This document shows, in pieces, positions 20,182 to 31,552 of a stretch of 32,000 nucleotides of DNA. A model generated the notes under the pieces. The model saw nothing but the letters and a program-made list of their open reading frames with translations, ran no database searches and was not told where the DNA came from. The stretch covers positions 1-32,000 of the forward strand of contig JBHLRO010000018.1 of assembly GCA_048882505.1 (NCBI GenBank), written 5' to 3'. Position 1 is the first letter of the stretch. Each line of letters starts with the position of its first letter. The DNA is from Candidatus Thorarchaeota archaeon. GTDB taxonomy: Archaea; Asgardarchaeota; Heimdallarchaeia; Hodarchaeales; Hodarchaeaceae. A program made the translations under genes and the position numbers.

Positions 20182-20426
20182 AATCAGACCTCAGGCTGCA
20201 TTTTAAGCCAAGAGTTTTAACTTGATTCGCAATTATCTCAAAGTCATTCCTTCAAAGTTAAAAAAATTCCTACTGCTCTCCAAAAAGGGGGATCTTATCA
20301 TCAATAGCATTAAAAACTTAGGCGATGGGGCCATTACATGAATGTATTGTTTCAATAGCTACTGAATTGGTCCGTTGGGGTCAATTTTTCAATCGTTTAA
20401 CCGGATTTTTAGGATTGAACAAAATA

Positions 20427-20843
20427 ATGGCATCTGAGGAAGCATATCTAAAGGCACTCAAACGCGCTCGAGACAATTTGCCAGCACATGTCTTTGAAAG
20501 AACTCGGTTTCAAATCCCTGAAGCGGATGTTTTCCGAGAGGGCAATAAAACCTGGATCACAGATTGGCGTAATGTGCTTAAAATAATAAATCGAGAGGAA
20601 ACAGCGGATCATTTGGCAAAACATCTAGCCCGCGAATTCGCAACCAGTACAACCGAAGAACGGGGACGGCTAGCATTGCAGGGAAAGTTCTCTCGAAAAA
20701 TGATCAACAAAGAACTGGCTACCTATGTCAAAGAATATGTAATTTGTCCTGAATGTGGGAAACCTGATACCAGGCTAATTCGAGAAGGGAGAATCCTGCA
20801 AAAACAGTGCGAGGCGTGTGGTGCCCGCAGTGCAGTCAAATGA
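20427..20843 (+). CDS. eif2b: Translation initiation factor 2 subunit beta (aIF2beta)
   Basis: ERTRFQIP, LAKHLAREFAT, LQGKF, YVICPECGKPDT...CEACGA. ATG 20427 preferred to 20325. Confidence 0.95.
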   Translation: MASEEAYLKALKRARDNLPAHVFERTRFQIPEADVFREGNKTWITDWRNVLKIINREETADHLAKHLAREFATSTTEERGRLALQGKFSRKMINKELATYVKEYVICPECGKPDTRLIREGRILQKQCEACGARSAVK

Positions 20844-21198
20844 AGAATCCCTAGAGGGTTCTAACGAGGATTCTGGCCCAACACGTATCGTGTTCAAGAT
20901 CCATAGACGAAATCGATCAGAAATCCTCGCTGTTTGTGATTTTTCCCTGTTAGGACAGACCATTTCAAATGACAGGGCGCGCGTAAAGATTTCGGAACAG
21001 TTCTATCTTGGTCAGGAGATTTCAGCGGATGATGCACTAGCCTTGTTTCGAAATTACGGCAATATTAATGCTTTTGGTTCAGTTTTAGAGCTTGCCATTC
21101 AGAAGCAGCTGATTAGAGAGGAGGCTTGTGTTTGGTTCAAAACATCGGATGGTAAAAGGATTCCTCACCTTTTAATCTTCTCTATTCCTCCAATTTGA
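20818..21198 (+). CDS. DUF424 family protein
   Basis: EILAVCDFSLLG...VKISEQFYLG...NINAFG...IPHLLIF; usual neighbour of aIF2beta and nmd3. Start uncertain. Confidence 0.8.
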   Translation: MVPAVQSNEESLEGSNEDSGPTRIVFKIHRRNRSEILAVCDFSLLGQTISNDRARVKISEQFYLGQEISADDALALFRNYGNINAFGSVLELAIQKQLIREEACVWFKTSDGKRIPHLLIFSIPPI

Positions 21199-21240
21199 AA
21201 GTTTAACGTTAGGCAATTGCTAGATTGAAGGGGTTCACTC

Positions 21241-22341
21241 ATGTCTCCCTGCATTGTATGTGGATTAAGGACGGTGTTTTTTCAAAGAATGTGCAGACAA
21301 TGCTATTTAGAAAGCCATCCCATTATTTTGGATGCAAAACCCCTTTCAGTGGTGGTTTGTGATCAATGCGGTCTCCTTTTCGCAGGAAAACAATGGTCAA
21401 CGTTTTTCCTAGATGAAATCGAAAGTCCAGAAGTCAAACAATGGTTTTCGTCATTGATTTCGAAACTCTGGCGTTTTCAGTATAAACCAACTTCTTTAGT
21501 GGTCAAAGAAGTAGAAATAGTTATCGATGAAGAGAGTCGTGGTCCTATTGCTGCTAATGGATATGTGGAGATTCAAGCCAGTCCAGATGCTTTTGTACCT
21601 CTTTTAAAAGTATCTGAAGAGCTGAATATTAAATTAGAAGGGGGAGAATGTACTGAATGTCGAGAACGGGCTTCAGGTCAATACGCAGCAAAGATTCAAG
21701 TTCGTACACATCAGAGCCTTAGCCCAGAAGAAATATCTAAGTGGGATGAAGAAATAACTATGTTAAGTCAGAATTACCCGCTAACAGACGGGAAGAATCC
21801 TTTGTTTCGTATTGATGTACTTAAAACTGGAATCGATGCCTTGTTTCAAACCCGATCACCCGCAATGGCAGTTGCCCGAGAATTTGCAAGAAATCGAGGC
21901 GGCATTTTGAGTACTACCACAGAATTTGCAGGTTTTGATAAATCGAGATCTCGGGAATATCCTCGGAAGCATGTTGTGTTGGTGGATTTACCTCCCTACA
22001 AACCTAATGATATCATCATCTATGCCGGGACTCCCGTCCAAATCCTTGGATTTCGAGATTTCAAGGTGGATTACTGGGATTTCAAGCAAAATAGGCGTCA
22101 TAGCAGTCCATTGAAACAGTTTCGAGAAGCAAGAATTCAAATAATTAACCAGGAGTTCACCCGTTTTCAATTGGTGAACTTTGAACATGATCACGAAATA
22201 GCCCAGATTATGAATACTTCCACTTTCGAGATACGTTTTGTTGAAACACGTTTTCTTCCCCACCTTAGCGAGGGGGAAACATTCCTAGGGAAATGGTTTT
22301 CTGATATTCTAGTAGTCAAACGACAAGAGAAAGATAATTAA
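21241..22341 (+). CDS. nmd3: 60S/50S ribosomal export/maturation factor Nmd3
   Basis: CIVCG...CRQC, CDQCG, CTEC...YAAKIQVR Zn motifs; C-terminal QIMNTSTFE. Confidence 0.9.
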   Translation: MSPCIVCGLRTVFFQRMCRQCYLESHPIILDAKPLSVVVCDQCGLLFAGKQWSTFFLDEIESPEVKQWFSSLISKLWRFQYKPTSLVVKEVEIVIDEESRGPIAANGYVEIQASPDAFVPLLKVSEELNIKLEGGECTECRERASGQYAAKIQVRTHQSLSPEEISKWDEEITMLSQNYPLTDGKNPLFRIDVLKTGIDALFQTRSPAMAVAREFARNRGGILSTTTEFAGFDKSRSREYPRKHVVLVDLPPYKPNDIIIYAGTPVQILGFRDFKVDYWDFKQNRRHSSPLKQFREARIQIINQEFTRFQLVNFEHDHEIAQIMNTSTFEIRFVETRFLPHLSEGETFLGKWFSDILVVKRQEKDN

Positions 22342-22366
22342 GGCAGGTAACCTGGAGGAGCTAATT

Positions 22367-23752
22367 TTGGCTGTACCAAAGGATCCCCCGAGTACAGAAA
22401 CTATTATTCGCATGGCTGCCGCAATTTTAACCCATCTTGATAATAATCAAGTGTCTCTTAGGAATGCCATGAAGATTTTTCCGACCCTAACTTCTCACAA
22501 CAATCCCTCTTTATATGCCCAGGTGAATGCTCTTACATTTGAAACTATACGTTATAGAAATACTCTCAATCGTCTTATCTATAACCATATACAACGTTTT
22601 CTGAGTGAGGCGCTCCCTGATTCTGTGTTAAATTTATTGCGTGTCGTGGTTTATCTGCTTGCGCTTGCTCCAGAGTCCCAAAGTACAGAACAATGGCGGC
22701 TAGGATGTCACGCGGTTTTAAAGACTATCACCTCACACAATCTTCCCGAAATACTGATGGATCTTGATTCGATTTTCACAGATTGGCATCTCTCTGAACT
22801 TCTTTTGACAATCAATGATCCTGAGGAGAGATTAGCCGTTCAATTCGCTCATCCGACTTGGCTGGTTCGTGATTTCACGCAGTACTATGGTCGAGAAACC
22901 ACCGTTCAGATTTTAACCACGAATAACAAGATTCTTCCGACCTATCTAAGATTGAATCTTATGAAGTATACGAAAGATGAGATCATTCAAACATTAAGAG
23001 CTGAAAAAGTCACCTTGGAAGAAGACCCTGATTTTAATGATATTATTCGTGCCGTGAATTGGGAATTACCCCTTCCCCGGCTACCCTCATTTAATAAAGG
23101 GCTATACTACATCCAAAACAAAGGATCTGCTCTTGTTTCCCATATCTTGAATCCTCGACCTGGAGAAACAGTTTTAGACGCATGTGCTGCTCCTGGAGGC
23201 AAGACGACCCACATTGCTGCTTTGCAGCAAGAACAAGGAAAAATAATTGCTTTAGACAATCATGAGAGAAGAATTGCAGAGCTGATACGTAAAATTAAAC
23301 TGTACAAATTGCGTACCATTTATCCCCTCCTCACTGACGTGAGGAAGCTACCCGTTAACGACCTTTTTCATATCCGTTTCGATAAGATTCTCGTTGACGC
23401 CCCGTGTTCTGGAACTGGAACTTTTTCATCCAGACCAGACGCTAAATGGAGGATAAATCGCCATCAAGTGAAATGGTTGAGTAAACTCCAGCTTGGGTTG
23501 TTATCCCAGGCATCCCAACTGCTCAAACCGAATCCAACTTCACGGTTGGTCTATGCCACCTGTAGCCTTCTACCCATGGAAAATGAGGACGTAATCGCGA
23601 AATTTTTGGATGAAAATCCAAATTTTACTCTAAAACCGCAATACCCCTATATTGGAACACCGATATCAGATTTCCCATTAGCACAACGTTTGTTTCCTCA
23701 CAAAACTCAAACTGAAGGCTTTTCAATATTCAAGCTTGGACTTCACAATTGA
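22367..23752 (+). CDS. rsmB: RsmB/NOP2/NSUN RNA m5C methyltransferase with NusB-like N-terminus
   Basis: HPTWLV, LRLN, DACAAPGGKTT, DAPCSGTG, YATCSL, TEGFSI. Confidence 0.92.
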   Translation: MAVPKDPPSTETIIRMAAAILTHLDNNQVSLRNAMKIFPTLTSHNNPSLYAQVNALTFETIRYRNTLNRLIYNHIQRFLSEALPDSVLNLLRVVVYLLALAPESQSTEQWRLGCHAVLKTITSHNLPEILMDLDSIFTDWHLSELLLTINDPEERLAVQFAHPTWLVRDFTQYYGRETTVQILTTNNKILPTYLRLNLMKYTKDEIIQTLRAEKVTLEEDPDFNDIIRAVNWELPLPRLPSFNKGLYYIQNKGSALVSHILNPRPGETVLDACAAPGGKTTHIAALQQEQGKIIALDNHERRIAELIRKIKLYKLRTIYPLLTDVRKLPVNDLFHIRFDKILVDAPCSGTGTFSSRPDAKWRINRHQVKWLSKLQLGLLSQASQLLKPNPTSRLVYATCSLLPMENEDVIAKFLDENPNFTLKPQYPYIGTPISDFPLAQRLFPHKTQTEGFSIFKLGLHN

Positions 23753-23913: not shown

Positions 23914-26421
23914 ATGTCTAATCAGTTACTTGCGAATCGGGACTATTTCCTTATGTCCACAGTTTATGACGCAAACTCTAACGGGGCGGGCATTAAACTA
24001 TTAGATGTTCAGGCTCAAAAAATAGTTTACGTGACGGATACTTATGGTCATGAACCGTACTGCTTTAGTAAAGAAACCCTTGATCGAATTTCATCGCTTA
24101 GCTCATTGTCCACGGTTACCAAGAGAATTGATTCAGTTACTCGAATTGATCTTTTGGAAGATATAGAAAGAGAATTCACGCGTATTGTAACTCCCACGCC
24201 CAGCGAAGTTCCTAAGGTTCGAGATATAATCAAAAAAGAGCTTAACCAAGAAACCTGGGAATCTCGCATTAAATATCACCGTAATTGGCTTTACGACGTG
24301 CAATTGGTTCCTGGCCGAAAATATTGGTGGGATCCGGAAACAAGTCGATTTATTCCTTCTCAGACCAGCAGTACAGGGATGCGAATTCCACAAGCTGTTG
24401 TAGAGAATTTGGCTCAATATCGAGGCTTACTTGAGGTCTTTCAGGACGATTTTGTCCAAGAAATTCCTGAAATGCGCGTAATCGCGTGTGACATTGAAAC
24501 TGATTATTCTGCGGGCCAAATTCCCCAACCTACTGATCCCAAGTTTCCGATCATTTGTATCTGCTTTGCAGATAGCCAAGGAAAGCAGATCGCGTTGGTT
24601 CTCGAACGGAAGAACATTTCAAAAGGATCTAAACCAGATGACTTACCTGAAATCCAGATCTTTTACTTTACAGAAGAGCGAGAGCTCCTCAAAGAGGCCT
24701 TTGAAATTCTAAACGGCTATCCAATGATCGTTACCTTTAATGGAGATAATTTCGATTTTCCCTATATGCACGAACGAGCAAGGCACCTTGGGATTCGAGG
24801 TTCTAGCCCAATTATATGGAACCGTCGGAATAAGGATTGTAACTTCACTCATGCAATCCACATTGATACCTACAGATTCTATCACAATGTAGCAATCCGA
24901 TCCTATGCGTTTGGAAACCGTTACACCGAGGAGTCACTGGATGCTATAGCAGAAGCCATGCTAGGGGTAGGAAAGCTCAGCCTCACAACGGAAATCGCTC
25001 AGCTTTCCGAATGGGAGCTCATTCATTACTGCGCCCGGGACGCAAAGATCACTCTGGACTTGCTATTCTTTGATAACCGTACCCCCCTCAATCTTATTTT
25101 TACACTAGCCCGTATCTCTCGGACCCCTCTAGACGATCTTGTCAGAACAAGTGTATCTAATTGGGTTAGAAGTATGTTTTATAGTGAGCACCGCCGTAGA
25201 AAATACTTCATTCCAAATCCTGAGGACATAGAATTAAAGAAAGGATCGATAGCAAGCTCTCAAGCCATTATCAAGGGGAAAAAATACAAGGGTGCATTAG
25301 TAATTGAACCAGTACCAGGGGTTCATTTCAATGTGGCCGTCCTAGACTTTGCTTCTCTATATCCTAGCATAATTGGAACATTTAATCTGAGCTACGAGAC
25401 CATAAACTGTACGCATACCGATTGTCGTAACAATAAGGTCCCTCAAACAGATTACTGGGTCTGTACGAAAAAACGTGGTGTGATTTCTGACATCATAGGG
25501 TTTATCAAGGATGTTCGTGTCCAGTGGTTAAAACCCGAATCGAAAAAGAAGGGCCCACACAAGGAATTCTTGCAGATTCTAGAACGGAGCCTGAAGGTAC
25601 TGATAAATGCCTCCTACGGTGTACTAGGTAGTGATCGTTTCCAATTATACTGTCTTCCTGTTGCTGACTCGACCACAGCCTATGGACGTGATGCCATTGA
25701 GCGAACTGTTTCAAAAGCTCGTGAACTCGGAGTCACAGTCCTGTATGGCGATACTGATTCGGTATTTCTTTTATCTCCAACGTCAAAACAAATCGAGGAG
25801 ATTATTCAATGGAGCCAGCGCGATCTCGGTGTGGGATTAGAAATGGAAAAGACCTATCGGTATATGGTTCTCTCTGAGCTTAAAAAGAACTATTTCGGTG
25901 TGTTTCCAGATTCCAAAGTGGATGTTAAAGGTCTTATGGGCAAGAAACGTAACACGCCACCCTTCCTACAGGACGGATTTCGCGAGGTACTCAAAATCCT
26001 TAGCCAGGTTTATTCTAATGAAGAATTTGATGAGGCCAAAGAAAGAGTAAAAAAACTTGTTCGCTCGATATACCAACGTTTAGAGAAAAGAGGATACACT
26101 AGTGAAGATCTAGCAGTCACTATGCAATTGACAATGCCTTTGGACAGATATAAGGTTAACTCACAACATGTTAAGGCGGCTCGTCAGCTCGAAAAGAAGC
26201 AACCAGGCCGAATAAAGGCAGGCACATTAATTCGTTTCGTTAAAACCAAGACTGGAGATCGTGTTACGCCAGTAGAGCTAGTCACTCCTACAACACAAAT
26301 AGATGTAAAGGCGTATAAAACTATGATTGATTCAACTTTTGATCAGCTATTAGGAGCGTTAGATTTGTCAGGACAGGAATTAGAATCTGGACAAATCAAT
26401 TTGATGGAATTTTTTACCTGA
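23914..26421 (+). CDS. polB: Family B DNA polymerase, PolB1 type, intein-free, C-terminal PIP box
   Basis: Exo motifs DIETD and FNGDNFDFPY; pol motifs DFASLYPS, KVLINASYG, YGDTDS; PolB1-type N-terminus (DTYGHEPY); ends QINLMEFF (QxxLxxFF). Confidence 0.95.
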   Translation: MSNQLLANRDYFLMSTVYDANSNGAGIKLLDVQAQKIVYVTDTYGHEPYCFSKETLDRISSLSSLSTVTKRIDSVTRIDLLEDIEREFTRIVTPTPSEVPKVRDIIKKELNQETWESRIKYHRNWLYDVQLVPGRKYWWDPETSRFIPSQTSSTGMRIPQAVVENLAQYRGLLEVFQDDFVQEIPEMRVIACDIETDYSAGQIPQPTDPKFPIICICFADSQGKQIALVLERKNISKGSKPDDLPEIQIFYFTEERELLKEAFEILNGYPMIVTFNGDNFDFPYMHERARHLGIRGSSPIIWNRRNKDCNFTHAIHIDTYRFYHNVAIRSYAFGNRYTEESLDAIAEAMLGVGKLSLTTEIAQLSEWELIHYCARDAKITLDLLFFDNRTPLNLIFTLARISRTPLDDLVRTSVSNWVRSMFYSEHRRRKYFIPNPEDIELKKGSIASSQAIIKGKKYKGALVIEPVPGVHFNVAVLDFASLYPSIIGTFNLSYETINCTHTDCRNNKVPQTDYWVCTKKRGVISDIIGFIKDVRVQWLKPESKKKGPHKEFLQILERSLKVLINASYGVLGSDRFQLYCLPVADSTTAYGRDAIERTVSKARELGVTVLYGDTDSVFLLSPTSKQIEEIIQWSQRDLGVGLEMEKTYRYMVLSELKKNYFGVFPDSKVDVKGLMGKKRNTPPFLQDGFREVLKILSQVYSNEEFDEAKERVKKLVRSIYQRLEKRGYTSEDLAVTMQLTMPLDRYKVNSQHVKAARQLEKKQPGRIKAGTLIRFVKTKTGDRVTPVELVTPTTQIDVKAYKTMIDSTFDQLLGALDLSGQELESGQINLMEFFT

Positions 26422-26572
26422 GGGAATTTTTTTTAGTTGTTTACGAGAATACGATCCAATCGATCTTGAATCTACGATCGATAGAACAAAAAATGAATTT
26501 CGAATCAAACATATATCTGGAAATTTACACCGTTCATCTAACCTTAGAGCATTTTGCGAAGGAGAAAATATC

Positions 26573-27325
26573 ATGGACACCATTCGAACTGAGGAAATGA
26601 CCTGGCCAGATATAAAAAACGCCATAGATAAAGGTTTTAATACGATAATATTTTGTATTGGATCTATTGAACAGCATGGCCCGCATTTACCTGAATATAC
26701 AGACTCTTTTTGGGGAGATGAAGTAGCAAATCGAATCGCCGTAAAATTGGGAAATACCCTCCAGGCTCCTACGATAAAGGTGGGTAATTCAGCACACCAT
26801 TTAGATTTTCCAGGTACGATTTCTCTCAAACCTTCAACACTAAAAGCAGTCATTAGAGATTATGTTGAAAGCCTTGTGAGGCATGGCTTTACGAGTATTC
26901 TCTTATTCCCCAGCCATGGTGGGAATTTCAGATTAACGGGGGAAATTATAACAGAATTAACTCCCTTGTATCCTGAAGTAAAGATTTGGGGCTACACTGA
27001 CTTGAAAAGACTTCTTGACATGCTTGCCGAATTTTCTGCTAATTTTGGAGTCACAAAAGCAGAGTCAGGAGGGCATGCGGGTGAAAGCGAGACCTCCATG
27101 ATTTTATCTTTAGCTGAAGAATTTGTTGTAAAAGAAAGAATGGATCCTGGCTATATCGGTTCACTTGGGGATAAGCAAATCTCTCAGATCTTTGATCATG
27201 GCATGAAGGTATTAACTGAGAATGGAATCCTCGGTGATCCGACAAAAGCCACAGCGGATGCGGGGGAGTTTTACATTCAAAAATTAGCAGATTTTTTGGT
27301 GAATGAAATCAATAAAATCATTTAA
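26573..27325 (+). CDS. Creatininase/creatinine amidohydrolase family protein
   Basis: GSIEQHGPHLP..TD, SAHHLDFPGT, SHGGN, GHAGESETS, GILGDP. Substrate unknown. Confidence 0.9.
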   Translation: MDTIRTEEMTWPDIKNAIDKGFNTIIFCIGSIEQHGPHLPEYTDSFWGDEVANRIAVKLGNTLQAPTIKVGNSAHHLDFPGTISLKPSTLKAVIRDYVESLVRHGFTSILLFPSHGGNFRLTGEIITELTPLYPEVKIWGYTDLKRLLDMLAEFSANFGVTKAESGGHAGESETSMILSLAEEFVVKERMDPGYIGSLGDKQISQIFDHGMKVLTENGILGDPTKATADAGEFYIQKLADFLVNEINKII

Positions 27326-27426: not shown

Positions 27427-27762
27427 ATGACATCCTCTGAGACGAACGAAAAGAAGATCGAAACTCTGACCAAGATAGCCCGATTATTGAGTGATCAGCT
27501 GAAAGAACAAAGCACAAAGTTAGCGCTTCTCCAGAAAGAGGTTACAACCTTAAAAGCAACGATTGATCAGAACCTAAGACCAAATTCTGCTTCTGAGGTC
27601 ACAACATCCTCTTTAGACAACGAATCAACGCCTCATATCAGCTCAACACCCCTTAATGAGGAGACTTCTCTCTCAACGGGTGCGGTACCTGATTTACCAA
27701 TAGAAAGGGATTCAGAGAAAAAGGAGTTATTAGCTGCATTAAAAGTAATTGATAACCTGTAA
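27427..27762 (+). CDS. Small protein: coiled coil, disordered linker, C-terminal amphipathic helix
   Basis: Heptad-like N-terminus, Ser/Thr/Pro-rich middle, terminal EKKELLAALKVIDNL. Confidence 0.65.
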   Translation: MTSSETNEKKIETLTKIARLLSDQLKEQSTKLALLQKEVTTLKATIDQNLRPNSASEVTTSSLDNESTPHISSTPLNEETSLSTGAVPDLPIERDSEKKELLAALKVIDNL

Positions 27763-27808: not shown

Positions 27809-29521
27809 CTATCTCAAAACGCTACGGATCTGTTGGCGTATTTCGAGTGGGGCCCCCTTATTACCCAAGATGATATCACGGTAGGCGGATATCTGATCGG
27901 ACCAATTCAGGCGATCAATTGAATAAACCTCTTCCCCCTCGGCAGTCATGTCGACTTTTAAGATATGCTTGTCCACGAAATCGTTCAAACGTCTTTGTAG
28001 TTCCATCCGTCTCTCAGTAGGAACGCCAAGTATTTGAGCGATTGCCCCGCGAGTTAAAGCTTGAGGTGTACTAAGCAGGAAGAGGATCCAATTATCTGGG
28101 TGGGCTAGGAATGTCTTCACCAATTGCTTCCAGTTTACATCGACGCCAAATGGAACGTCTTGACCTGATTGCGGGGGAAGGGATTGATTTGTTTTCATCG
28201 TGAGTTTTTGGGTAACCTCATAGCTCAATTCCTTGGCTTTAGGCTCTCCAATGGTAGCCAAACGGATTTTTAAGTCTTCTACTTCTCCGCGCAATTTTTC
28301 TAGATCTTCGGCTAGATTTGAGGCATTGGCTACATCTTTTAGAAAAGGTTGTTTAGAAGAAATTGTCCCGCTTTGACGTAAAAGCCGTTTCAATTCTTCA
28401 TTTTCTCGTTTCGAACGGATAAGGATATGCTCAAATTCTTTCAGTTTCTCGGTTAATTCCTCAACAAGACGTTCATCCATCCCACGTGACCAGAGTACTT
28501 TTTCACTTGCGCTGCTTGTGGTTTCGTTCAATTCAGTTTCTAAAGAAAATTTTATTGTTTCTAGTTCTTTGATCCGTGCATTCTGGTTTGCGATTTTAGA
28601 TCTTAAGCGGGAGACCACTGAGGGATTGGCGAGGATAAGCTCATTATCCGCTACATTAGGGATCCGGTATACTGGTACGAATTTGTTTCCTCCTTCCATG
28701 ATTGACCCTGTATCACACTGTACCCCCAGTTTTTCTAGCAATTTGACGATCTCACGTGTTTCGTCGGAAGCTCTAAACATGAACAGATCTTCTCCCTGTT
28801 CAAATCGATAGACCCTTGAAAATTGAAGCCACATACGGACGAAATCTAAAATATCCTGCTCATCTTCACACTTAGCTACTGAATGAATAATTTGGGGGAA
28901 ATTAGCTTTATATTCCCCCGTGAAGACTTTGATCAAAGCCTGACAGAGTTGTACAGGAATTTTAATATAATACCCCCTCTGATTATAATCGATTTCACCA
29001 TCTGGGCATAAATTAACATCAAAAATTTCTTCAAAGGTCTCGATTAAAGCCTCGACTTTATGACGTTGATCTGTTTGATAGGTGCCAGTCAAGAAAACAT
29101 TGCGGGCCAGAGTAAGTAGGGCAAGCAGCTTTGCAAGGTGATTTTTCTTGGTCCGAATGGGTAGTCGAATTGGGAGTTGAATCTTTTTTGATCCGATCGA
29201 AGTGACTGTAAATGAAGTCATGAACATTTCGTGGTTGGATTGTCCAATCAATAAACGAAGGGTAGACAAAGGAATAGTCATTTCAGGATTAGACCGGTAT
29301 CGTGACCATTGGGCGCGACTTACTACACCCTCCAGATCTTTTTGGACATTTCCTTTCTGAAAAATGAATTTGCGCCCACGTGCCGTCAGATTGACCCTTG
29401 TGTCATCAGGGAAGTGTTCTAAGGTGAGCCATTGATCAGTATCGTGATCAGGATTCCGCTTCGGGCGAGACTGCTTAATAGATTCCTTTAAATCGTCGTT
29501 ATCCACAAAAAAAATCTCCAC
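27809..29521 (-). CDS. Hypothetical DNA-binding protein: HTH + degenerate LAGLIDADG-like domain + coiled coil + winged helix
   Basis: LPIRLP...LAKLLALL, FEEIFDV, YYIKIP, FPQII...DFVRMWL, IVKLLEKLGV, VYRI follow the two-motif LAGLIDADG layout without the DG acids. Coiled coil in the middle; C-terminal LTRGAIAQILGV...FVDKHIL...VYSI wHTH. Confidence 0.55.
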   Translation of the reverse strand: MEIFFVDNDDLKESIKQSRPKRNPDHDTDQWLTLEHFPDDTRVNLTARGRKFIFQKGNVQKDLEGVVSRAQWSRYRSNPEMTIPLSTLRLLIGQSNHEMFMTSFTVTSIGSKKIQLPIRLPIRTKKNHLAKLLALLTLARNVFLTGTYQTDQRHKVEALIETFEEIFDVNLCPDGEIDYNQRGYYIKIPVQLCQALIKVFTGEYKANFPQIIHSVAKCEDEQDILDFVRMWLQFSRVYRFEQGEDLFMFRASDETREIVKLLEKLGVQCDTGSIMEGGNKFVPVYRIPNVADNELILANPSVVSRLRSKIANQNARIKELETIKFSLETELNETTSSASEKVLWSRGMDERLVEELTEKLKEFEHILIRSKRENEELKRLLRQSGTISSKQPFLKDVANASNLAEDLEKLRGEVEDLKIRLATIGEPKAKELSYEVTQKLTMKTNQSLPPQSGQDVPFGVDVNWKQLVKTFLAHPDNWILFLLSTPQALTRGAIAQILGVPTERRMELQRRLNDFVDKHILKVDMTAEGEEVYSIDRLNWSDQISAYRDIILGNKGAPLEIRQQIRSVLR

Positions 29522-29736
29522 AAGGTACTTCTAGAGCGTACCCCTAATACTTAAGACCATATGGTCTGGATTTCTTGTCTGATATTGTTCTTACAAGCCC
29601 TTCTAATATGTGTTTAGGTACGGGGCTAATTCCGTGATTACCTTGAACATAAATAACGGCGCTAAAATGGACGATACTGCCACATAATGGGAAATAAACG
29701 CTGCAAACTTCATTCTGGGCCTAATTTCATCAAGCA

Positions 29737-30757: not shown

Positions 30758-31135
30758 CTATATTAAAACTGCATCCACCGTACCAGTTTGGCCTGGACGA
30801 CTTGTGACTCGAGCTAATCCTTTTTTGGTACGAATGATTGCTCCTTTCGTAATAATTTTACGGCGAGCAAAGTCACGATTCGCAGAATTATCTTCAATGT
30901 CTTCAATTTCCAATTTTTCTGTTTTTCTCGGTTTTCCTGTTGATATATTGGCAAACTGAGTTACCTGAAGCCGGATTTTTCTATTTCCTCCACGAGTTCG
31001 AATAATCTTCTTCCGCCCCTCACCGAGATTTGTTAAAGCTGGGGGTCGTGCAAGGTCACGGCTTTTCTTTTTGGTGGAAACGTGATAGCGTCCTCCGCTA
31101 GGTTTACGCTTCGATCTTCTTTGTGTTCGCGCCAC
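30758..31135 (-). CDS. rps8e: 30S ribosomal protein S8e
   Basis: KRKPSGGR, RTRGGN, IITKGAII, ARVTSRPGQTG. Confidence 0.96.
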   Translation of the reverse strand: MARTQRRSKRKPSGGRYHVSTKKKSRDLARPPALTNLGEGRKKIIRTRGGNRKIRLQVTQFANISTGKPRKTEKLEIEDIEDNSANRDFARRKIITKGAIIRTKKGLARVTSRPGQTGTVDAVLI

Positions 31136-31219
31136 ATGTGTACCTTCCTATGATGAAGCTCTATGAGTCTTAGACAACCTGTCGAGCACAGGTTAAGCGA
31201 TTAAGGTTATTTATCATCC

Positions 31220-31552
31220 TTAAAGGGTGGTCTTTTGTGTTTTTTTCCCTCGTTTTTTACGAGTAAAACTCTTCAGCTTTTTTCTAACGGGGCGTTCTCC
31301 GATATAAATCACGTCATCTGATTTTACAAGCTGATAGATTTCTTTTTTCACTGCAATAACAATCCACGGACTTCGTGTTGAGCCAATCACCTCAATAATC
31401 TCCCCTATTTCCTTATATACACCATTTTTCCTAACGACAGCACGGGTTCCAATTTTTGGTAATTTTCCTTCTTTGACCTGAACAAGAACCTTTCCTTGGG
31501 TCTTTTTTGCACAAATTCCTAGTCTTTTTGGGTCTTGTGGCACGATCAACAT
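31220..31552 (-). CDS. gar1: H/ACA RNP Gar1/Naf1 family protein
   Basis: PKIGTRAV...EIGEIIEVIGSTRSPWIVI matches the Gar1 GxVxDxFGPVxxPY core; basic tail. Confidence 0.72.
   Translation of the reverse strand: MLIVPQDPKRLGICAKKTQGKVLVQVKEGKLPKIGTRAVVRKNGVYKEIGEIIEVIGSTRSPWIVIAVKKEIYQLVKSDDVIYIGERPVRKKLKSFTRKKRGKKTQKTTL

What the first reader, a model, noticed from the sequence alone, without database searches (positions are those of the whole stretch)
27809..29521. Apparently domesticated, nuclease-dead LAGLIDADG protein with coiled coil and winged helix
Seen: an HTH-like segment (VSRAQWSRYRSNPEMTIPLSTLRLLI), then the two-repeat layout of intein-type homing endonucleases. Both LAGLIDADG helices lack the catalytic acid and Gly (LAKLLALLTLARN; DFVRMWLQFSR). 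A long coiled coil and a C-terminal wHTH follow. No intein splicing residues or host gene are evident. Established: bacterial WhiA and yeast HO are domesticated LAGLIDADG proteins. Inference: an undescribed archaeal DNA-binding regulator or chromosome-organisation factor derived from a mobile endonuclease.
Basis: inference. Interest (0 to 1): 0.65.

Follow-up and report, generated by a model that had tools for sequence, protein, structure and literature searches.

The report
Dead homing-endonuclease fold turned DNA-binding protein
One order of Asgard archaea (Hodarchaeales) keeps a single-copy gene for a protein with the fold of a DNA-cutting homing endonuclease but without its cutting residues, joined to two helix-turn-helix domains and a coiled coil, so it looks like an independent archaeal parallel to the bacterial regulator WhiA, though its function is untested.

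The parts
27809..29521 (-). Whole ORF, 570 aa from GTG 29521. The likely true start is GTG 29506 (565 aa). The stop codon is at 27809-27811.
   Evidence: The GGAG at 29516-29519 aligns with the orthologues' SD. The database version P0002 is 565 aa.
29216..29389 (-). Residues 45-102: small helical bundle, an XRE-like helix-turn-helix that includes the quoted VSRAQWSRYRSNPEMTIPLSTLRLLI.
29156..29215 (-). Residues 103-122: beta-hairpin SFTVTSIGxKKxQLPIxLPI, the most conserved segment of the protein. Its role is unknown.
   Evidence: Strands 104-109 and 112-120. Pairwise identity 0.76-0.84. pLDDT there is only 51-67.
28622..29155 (-). Residues 123-300: two-lobe LAGLIDADG-fold core without catalytic acids.
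29084..29137 (-). Residues 129-146: first signature helix HLAKLLALLTLARNVFLTG. The acid position holds K/R140 (hhalign register) or T/S145 (register helix-G146-strand).
28805..28861 (-). Residues 221-239: second signature helix EQDILDFVRMWLQFSRVYR. FVRMWLQFSR lines up with the inteins' FLRGLFDADG, so the acid becomes S235 and the Gly becomes R236.
28250..28621 (-). Residues 301-424: coiled-coil region, a helical hairpin (302-338, 343-383) with a conserved WSRxxDERL turn, then a third helix (400-424).
   Evidence: Coiled-coil Pfam and PADLOC noise hits. Alignment.
28136..28249 (-). Residues 425-462: low-confidence linker containing a conserved KELSYKVTQEITMK-like motif.
   Evidence: pLDDT < 50. 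Motif conserved in alignment A1.
27812..28135 (-). Residues 463-570: MarR/ArsR/PadR-type winged helix-turn-helix with a C-terminal helix.
29554..29567 (.). Perfect 14-bp palindrome AGACCATATGGTCT abutting a TATA-like TTAAGTATTA upstream of the gene. It is a candidate operator (inference only).
   Evidence: unique in the 4.3-Mb genome and conserved only in the 95%-identical relative L002.
27427..27762 (+). Convergent 111-aa coiled-coil gene, always adjacent to the LAGLIDADG-fold gene in family f1. It is a possible partner (inference).

Best explanation
The gene encodes a catalytically inactive descendant of a LAGLIDADG (LAGLIDADG_3/intein-like) homing-endonuclease fold. It has become a fixed, vertically inherited host protein of the Hodarchaeales. 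Shown: the fold, the loss of both metal-binding acids, the absence of any splicing domain, single-copy order-wide conservation, and strong purifying selection that is strongest on the endonuclease-like module. Inferred: the protein dimerises through its coiled coil and binds specific DNA with several modules together. These are an N-terminal XRE-like HTH, a C-terminal MarR/ArsR-like winged helix, and possibly what remains of the LAGLIDADG beta-saddle, whose strand residues Q149, R182, Y185, K187, R250 and Y285 are invariant. It would then act as a transcription regulator or DNA-bridging architectural factor, perhaps regulating its own promoter, in the manner of bacterial WhiA.
Confidence: 0.6

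Rival explanations
1. This is the WhiA-type division of labour. The dead LAGLIDADG core no longer touches DNA bases and instead serves as a protein-protein docking platform, for example for the adjacent 111-aa coiled-coil protein or for the transcription machinery. Only the HTH and wHTH domains read DNA.
For: In WhiA the endonuclease-like domain bridges to WhiB while the HTH makes the base contacts (PMC10243135). The lobes are modelled one strand short and lobe 2 is acidic. The small coiled-coil gene is co-distributed and always adjacent in family f1.
Against: Polar and basic residues on the remaining strands are invariant, which also fits nucleic-acid contact. The small neighbour is convergent rather than co-transcribed, it was not detected in sister family f2, and it is under weaker constraint (dN/dS 0.5).
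Confidence: 0.22
2. It is an RNA-binding, maturase-like or ribosome-biogenesis cofactor. The LAGLIDADG scaffold was recruited to bind structured RNA, as in group I intron maturases.
For: LAGLIDADG proteins have repeatedly become RNA maturases (PMC3384342). The conserved neighbourhood is rich in translation and ribosome-biogenesis genes: eIF2-beta, NMD3, RsmB/Nop2-like, S8e, Gar1.
Against: The two flanking domains are classical DNA-binding folds. The neighbourhood is not an operon with this gene, which has a convergent neighbour on one side and a neighbour of variable orientation on the other. That neighbourhood is lost in the sister family.
Confidence: 0.08
3. It is still a nuclease, using a non-canonical active site, for example acidic residues in the loop 240-245 after the second helix.
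For: E244 is common in the main clade (51 of 77). Basic residues that could stabilise a transition state (K155, R250) are conserved.
Against: E244 is not conserved in the divergent clade (K, D, R, N or Q). Both canonical acid positions are non-acidic across the family, with a single D at the alternative position 145 in 1 of 77 members. Single-copy vertical inheritance with no target-site or mobility signature is unlike an active homing enzyme.
Confidence: 0.05
4. The LAGLIDADG resemblance is convergent or a modelling artefact, and the N-terminal module is an unrelated alpha/beta domain.
For: There is no significant sequence or profile similarity to any LAGLIDADG family. The alignment behind the model is shallow (23-32 sequences, Neff about 2-3). 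The topology lacks one strand per lobe.
Confidence: 0.05

Closest known systems
WhiA / DUF199 (bacterial transcription factor; PDB 3hyi, 3hyj, 8dy7, 8dy9)
   Different: There is no sequence relationship: no hit to the WhiA_N, LAGLIDADG_WhiA or HTH_WhiA models. The lineage is archaeal and limited to one order, rather than Gram-positive bacteria. The architecture differs, with an extra N-terminal XRE-like HTH, a ~120-aa coiled coil, and a MarR/ArsR-type winged helix instead of a sigma-region-4-like HTH. This is most simply an independent domestication.
Intein-encoded LAGLIDADG endonucleases (TliVMA intein 7qsu/7qss, PI-PfuI 1dq3, PI-TkoII 2cw7/2cw8, PI-SceI 1vde/1lwt; Pfam LAGLIDADG_3)
   Different: There are no Hint or splicing domains, no host extein, no catalytic Asp/Glu, and no mobility. 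The gene is single-copy and order-wide, whereas true inteins in the same genomes number 0-21 and are patchy. The intein in a neighbouring PolB (L008) is unrelated.
Monomeric intron-encoded or free-standing LAGLIDADG enzymes (I-DmoI 2vs8, I-Tsp061I 2dch)
   Different: Those enzymes are active nucleases with D/E at both motif ends and four-stranded saddles. They lack the added HTH, coiled-coil and wHTH domains.
Yeast HO endonuclease and LAGLIDADG maturases
   Same: They are other cases in which a LAGLIDADG element acquired a host function (PMC3384342).
   Different: HO keeps its nuclease activity and its intein-like domains. Maturases act on RNA and stay inside introns. Neither was compared structurally here.

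Membership tests
LAGLIDADG homing endonucleases (as a fold superfamily) | [quoted passage not shown] | tested here: met
LAGLIDADG homing endonucleases (as active enzymes) | Acidic residue (Asp/Glu) at the C-terminal end of each signature helix, to bind the catalytic metals (I-DmoI D20/E117; PMC3384342) | tested here: not met
   Positions 140 or 145 and 235/236 are K/R, T/S, S and R in 77 members, with one D at position 145 in one member.
LAGLIDADG homing endonucleases (as active enzymes) | Match to a curated sequence model (Pfam LAGLIDADG_1/2/3, Hom_end) | tested here: not met
   No hit at E <= 10 for the query, or at E <= 0.05 for 32 members. hhalign to local intein endonucleases gives probability 2.5%.
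LAGLIDADG homing endonucleases (as mobile elements) | Residence in an intein or intron, or a patchy, multi-copy, horizontally spread distribution | tested here: not met
   Free-standing, single-copy, 22 of 23 other genomes of the order, syntenic. Real LAGLIDADG_3 domains number 0-21 per genome.
Inteins | Hint splicing domain (blocks A, B, F, G) with N-terminal Cys/Ser and C-terminal His-Asn plus Cys/Ser/Thr, inserted in a host protein | tested here: not met
   No Hint or intein Pfam match. A coiled coil follows the core directly. The gene has its own SD and start codon. The TxxH-like T33..H36 is not conserved.
WhiA / DUF199 | Sequence membership (Pfam WhiA_N, LAGLIDADG_WhiA, HTH_WhiA) | tested here: not met
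   No hit. The PDB sequence searches (single sequence and profile) found nothing.
WhiA / DUF199 | Dead LAGLIDADG core tethered to a DNA-binding HTH domain | tested here: met
   The HTH type and the domain order differ, so this is functional analogy and not membership.
WhiA / DUF199 | Sequence-specific promoter binding and transcription activation or autoregulation | not testable with these tools
   The only lead is a gene-specific conserved palindromic element upstream of the TATA box.
MarR/ArsR-type winged-helix regulators (C-terminal domain only) | Winged helix-turn-helix fold with recognition helix and beta-wing | tested here: met
XRE/Cro-type HTH (N-terminal domain only) | Five-helix bundle with helix-turn-helix | tested here: inconclusive

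The most novel reading that the evidence does not exclude
This is an independent, archaeal domestication of a homing endonuclease into an essential lineage-defining chromosome factor of the Hodarchaeales, the archaea placed closest to eukaryotes. It would be a coiled-coil dimer that uses three DNA-reading modules to bridge or mark long composite sites, for example at replication, segregation or cell-division loci. It would work together with the co-inherited 111-aa coiled-coil neighbour, and would not be an ordinary single-operon regulator.
Probability: 0.15. Interest if true: 0.75.

Novelty: new variant of a known kind. Interest (0 to 1): 0.55.

Why it matters
Domestication of selfish homing endonucleases into host regulators is known from very few cases (WhiA, HO, maturases), and I found no archaeal case described in the paper library. 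This family shows the same outcome arising separately: the fold is kept, the acids are lost and HTH domains are added. It has a different and richer architecture, and it is fixed in the whole order of Asgard archaea thought to be closest to eukaryotes. It gives a defined, order-specific, strongly constrained candidate DNA-binding factor whose targets could be mapped directly. It is also a natural example of a LAGLIDADG scaffold that has been inactivated and re-equipped.

Tried and rejected
- **Sequence searches:** Pfam, NCBIfam, PHROGs and PDB-sequence searches with the single protein and with the profile gave no informative hit for the N-terminal module.
- **PADLOC:** the LmuB hit (E 1.6e-5) lies wholly in the coiled coil (293-430), so I rejected it as compositional. 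The NCBIfam ASRP and Pfam Rootletin/Filament hits were rejected for the same reason.
- **hhalign:** the comparison with intein endonucleases collected from the same class was not significant (probability 0.8-2.5%). I used it only as a co-linear register.
- **'Liberated PolB intein' idea:** the intein in the neighbouring PolB of L008 shows no similarity. PolB orientation differs between species and a creatininase gene is inserted in the window's species. Rejected.
- **Regulon search:** the upstream palindromes AGACCATATGGTCT and AAGRTTCATGAAT are no more frequent than the control, and occur essentially only at the gene's own promoter.
- **Other architectures:** neither the C-terminal half as a separate protein nor other fusions of the N-terminal module were found. 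Only contig-end fragments turned up.
- **Expression:** no RNA holder is listed for this stretch, so expression could not be examined, and read laying was not used.

Full report
**Observation.** The window holds a 570-codon ORF at 27809..29521 on the minus strand. Alignment of the upstream regions of 21 orthologous loci shows a GGAG Shine-Dalgarno about 8-9 nt before their ATG. In the window that GGAG lies at 29516-29519, inside the first codons of the long ORF, and the next GTG is at 29506. The real protein is therefore probably 565 aa, as in the database copy P0002.

**No sequence family.** Pfam, NCBIfam and the PDB sequence library gave only coiled-coil noise. A profile of the N-terminal module also found nothing in the PDB. 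A word-indexed search found 71 clusters, all full-length, 31-89% identical, and all from Hodarchaeales, Hodarchaeota or 'Heimdallarchaeota' MAGs. An exhaustive HMMER profile search of 1.84 billion representatives with residues 27-300 returned only 15 proteins, about ten full-length clusters plus fragments. It gave no bridge to any other family or architecture. The C-terminal half is not found as a separate protein.

**Structure.**
- The full-length AF2 model (pLDDT 72) is confident for residues 30-300 and 465-570. A second model of residues 27-300, from an independent alignment of locus-derived sequences, reached pLDDT 81.8 and pTM 0.83.
- Foldseek against the PDB puts intein-type LAGLIDADG endonucleases first (PI-SceI, TliVMA, PI-TkoII; E 1e-4 to 2e-3). 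I-DmoI, I-Tsp061I and WhiA follow.
- The ESM Atlas feature search independently returns archaeal LAGLIDADG_3 clusters for 22 of 30 neighbours.
- The modelled topology per lobe is helix-strand-helix-hairpin-helix, one strand short of the canonical pattern.

**Catalytic residues.** LAGLIDADG enzymes need an Asp or Glu at the C-terminal end of each signature helix. WhiA lacks them and cannot cut DNA (PMC3384342). Here the two helices are 129-145 and 221-234. A co-linear but statistically insignificant hhalign against intein endonucleases taken from the same class places LLALLTLARN on YLLGLLLGDG and FVRMWLQFSR on FLRGLFDADG. Across 77 family members these positions hold:

| Position | Residues in 77 members |
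|---|---|
| 140 | K55, R20, T2 |
| 141 | N/G/H |
| 145 | T65, S10, N1, D1 |
| 146 | G77 |
| 235 | S72 |
| 236 | R76 |

So in either register there is no conserved acid. Strand residues Q149, N180, R182, G183, Y185, K187, F249, R250 and Y285 are invariant or nearly so, which points to a conserved functional surface.

**Flanking domains.**
- Residues 103-122 form a hairpin that is the most conserved stretch of the protein but is modelled with low confidence.
- Residues 301-424 form long helices, with a hairpin whose turn carries a conserved WSRxxDERL motif.
- No Hint or splicing model is matched by any member.

**Distribution and evolution.**
- The gene is single-copy in its genome.
- In 83 genomes of the class it is present in 20 of 21 genomes of its own family (the exception is 74% complete) and 2 of 2 of the sister family. 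It is absent from all 61 genomes of the other five families.
- Gene order S8e, VTT/DedA, this gene, a convergent 111-aa coiled-coil gene, then PolB, RsmB, NMD3 and DUF424 is kept in about 19 loci.
- Pairwise identity of the protein correlates with that of PolB (r 0.78) and RsmB (r 0.72), and its mean identity (0.65) lies between theirs.
- Against the closest relative, dN/dS is 0.054 overall. By domain it is 0.027 for the N-terminal module, 0.10 for the coiled coil and 0.065 for the wHTH.
- Genuine LAGLIDADG_3 domains in the same class vary from 0 to 21 per genome and sit in long intein-bearing ORFs. The contrast argues for a fixed host gene and against a mobile element.
- The intein in the PolB next to the orthologue in L008 is unrelated, so there is no sign that the gene was freed from the adjacent polymerase.

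**Mechanism.**
- Shown: the fold, the loss of the acids, the extra domains and the constraint.
- Inferred: a coiled-coil dimer that reads DNA with its HTH and wHTH domains and perhaps with the remnant saddle, working as a regulator or DNA-bridging factor.
- WhiA offers two lessons. Such proteins can autoregulate (PMC3384342). Their dead endonuclease domain may serve mainly as a docking platform for a partner while the HTH reads bases (PMC10243135). The latter is my main rival reading, and the acidic second lobe (pI 4.6) and the trimmed sheets favour it somewhat.
- Candidate operator: most orthologues share AAAGrTTCATGAAT, with a palindromic core, about 10 nt upstream of a GAATATATAAG TATA box. 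That long motif occurs essentially only at this promoter in each genome. The window's species has instead a unique perfect 14-bp palindrome abutting a TATA-like element. This fits gene-specific control but does not show who binds it.

**Comparison and novelty.** The protein works like WhiA in outline but fails every sequence-membership test for WhiA, for active LAGLIDADG enzymes and for inteins. Its domain set (XRE-like HTH, dead LAGLIDADG, coiled coil, MarR-like wHTH) was not found elsewhere or in the literature library. I rate it a new variant of a known kind: an independent, order-restricted archaeal domestication.

**Earlier scan notes.** Earlier notes of this scan flagged orthologues in other genomes, and one follow-up reached the same reading. 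My tests were run independently on this window.

**Limits.** Model coordinates could not be analysed in scripts. Homology to LAGLIDADG proteins rests on predicted structure.

Noticed in passing
window 27427-27762 (+): A 111-aa protein with a conserved N-terminal coiled-coil helix (NAKKIETLTKVARLLGDQI...), a variable disordered linker and a conserved C-terminal helix (SEKEELLxALKVIDNL). It has no Pfam, PHROG or PADLOC match. It is present in the same 20 of 21 family-f1 genomes as the LAGLIDADG-fold gene, always adjacent and convergent. It was not detected in sister family f2. There are weak C-terminal-motif hits in ~200-aa ORFs of family f7. dN/dS against L002 is 0.5.
   Followed up: partly
window 29554-29567; L003-L022 upstream regions: Three promoter types occur upstream of the orthologues. 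One has AAAGrTTCATGAAT plus a GAATATATAAG TATA box, about 100 nt before the ATG. A second type is shared by L010, L012, L013, L015 and L021. The third is the window's unique palindrome AGACCATATGGTCT. The promoter type changes with the orientation of the upstream VTT/DedA gene.
   Followed up: partly
window 23914-27325: In the window and its closest relative L002, PolB is inverted relative to about 17 other Hodarchaeales loci, and a creatininase-family gene (26573-27325) is inserted between PolB and the small coiled-coil gene.
   Followed up: no
L008:3923-7540: The PolB orthologue is 1205 aa and carries an intein of about 358 aa, with an AIYGLFLSDG motif, inserted at the conserved ...LDFASLYPS... 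site. The window's PolB (835 aa) has no intein.
   Followed up: partly
G000 and 82 genomes of the class: Intein-type LAGLIDADG_3 domains vary from 0 to 21 hits per genome. The window's genome has only two (G000:C2:361904-362131 and C28:19157-19336).
   Followed up: no
ESM Atlas neighbours of residues 27-300: Some archaeal clusters, mostly labelled Nanobdellota, combine LAGLIDADG_3 with HTH_5 (ArsR) or HTH_26 (XRE) domains in 19-32% of members. An unnamed 398-aa Asgard cluster was the top neighbour. These may be further LAGLIDADG-plus-HTH domestications in archaea. No ids were available to follow them up.
   Followed up: no
window 20325-23752 and 30758-31552: The conserved housekeeping neighbourhood holds eIF2-beta, DUF424, NMD3, an RsmB/Nop2-like methyltransferase, ribosomal protein S8e and a Gar1-like protein (weak). 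It is syntenic across the family.
   Followed up: no
G063 (C30 and C379): One genome (contamination 9%) carries two full copies of both the LAGLIDADG-fold gene and the small neighbour on separate contigs. This is more likely two strains in one bin than a duplication.
   Followed up: no
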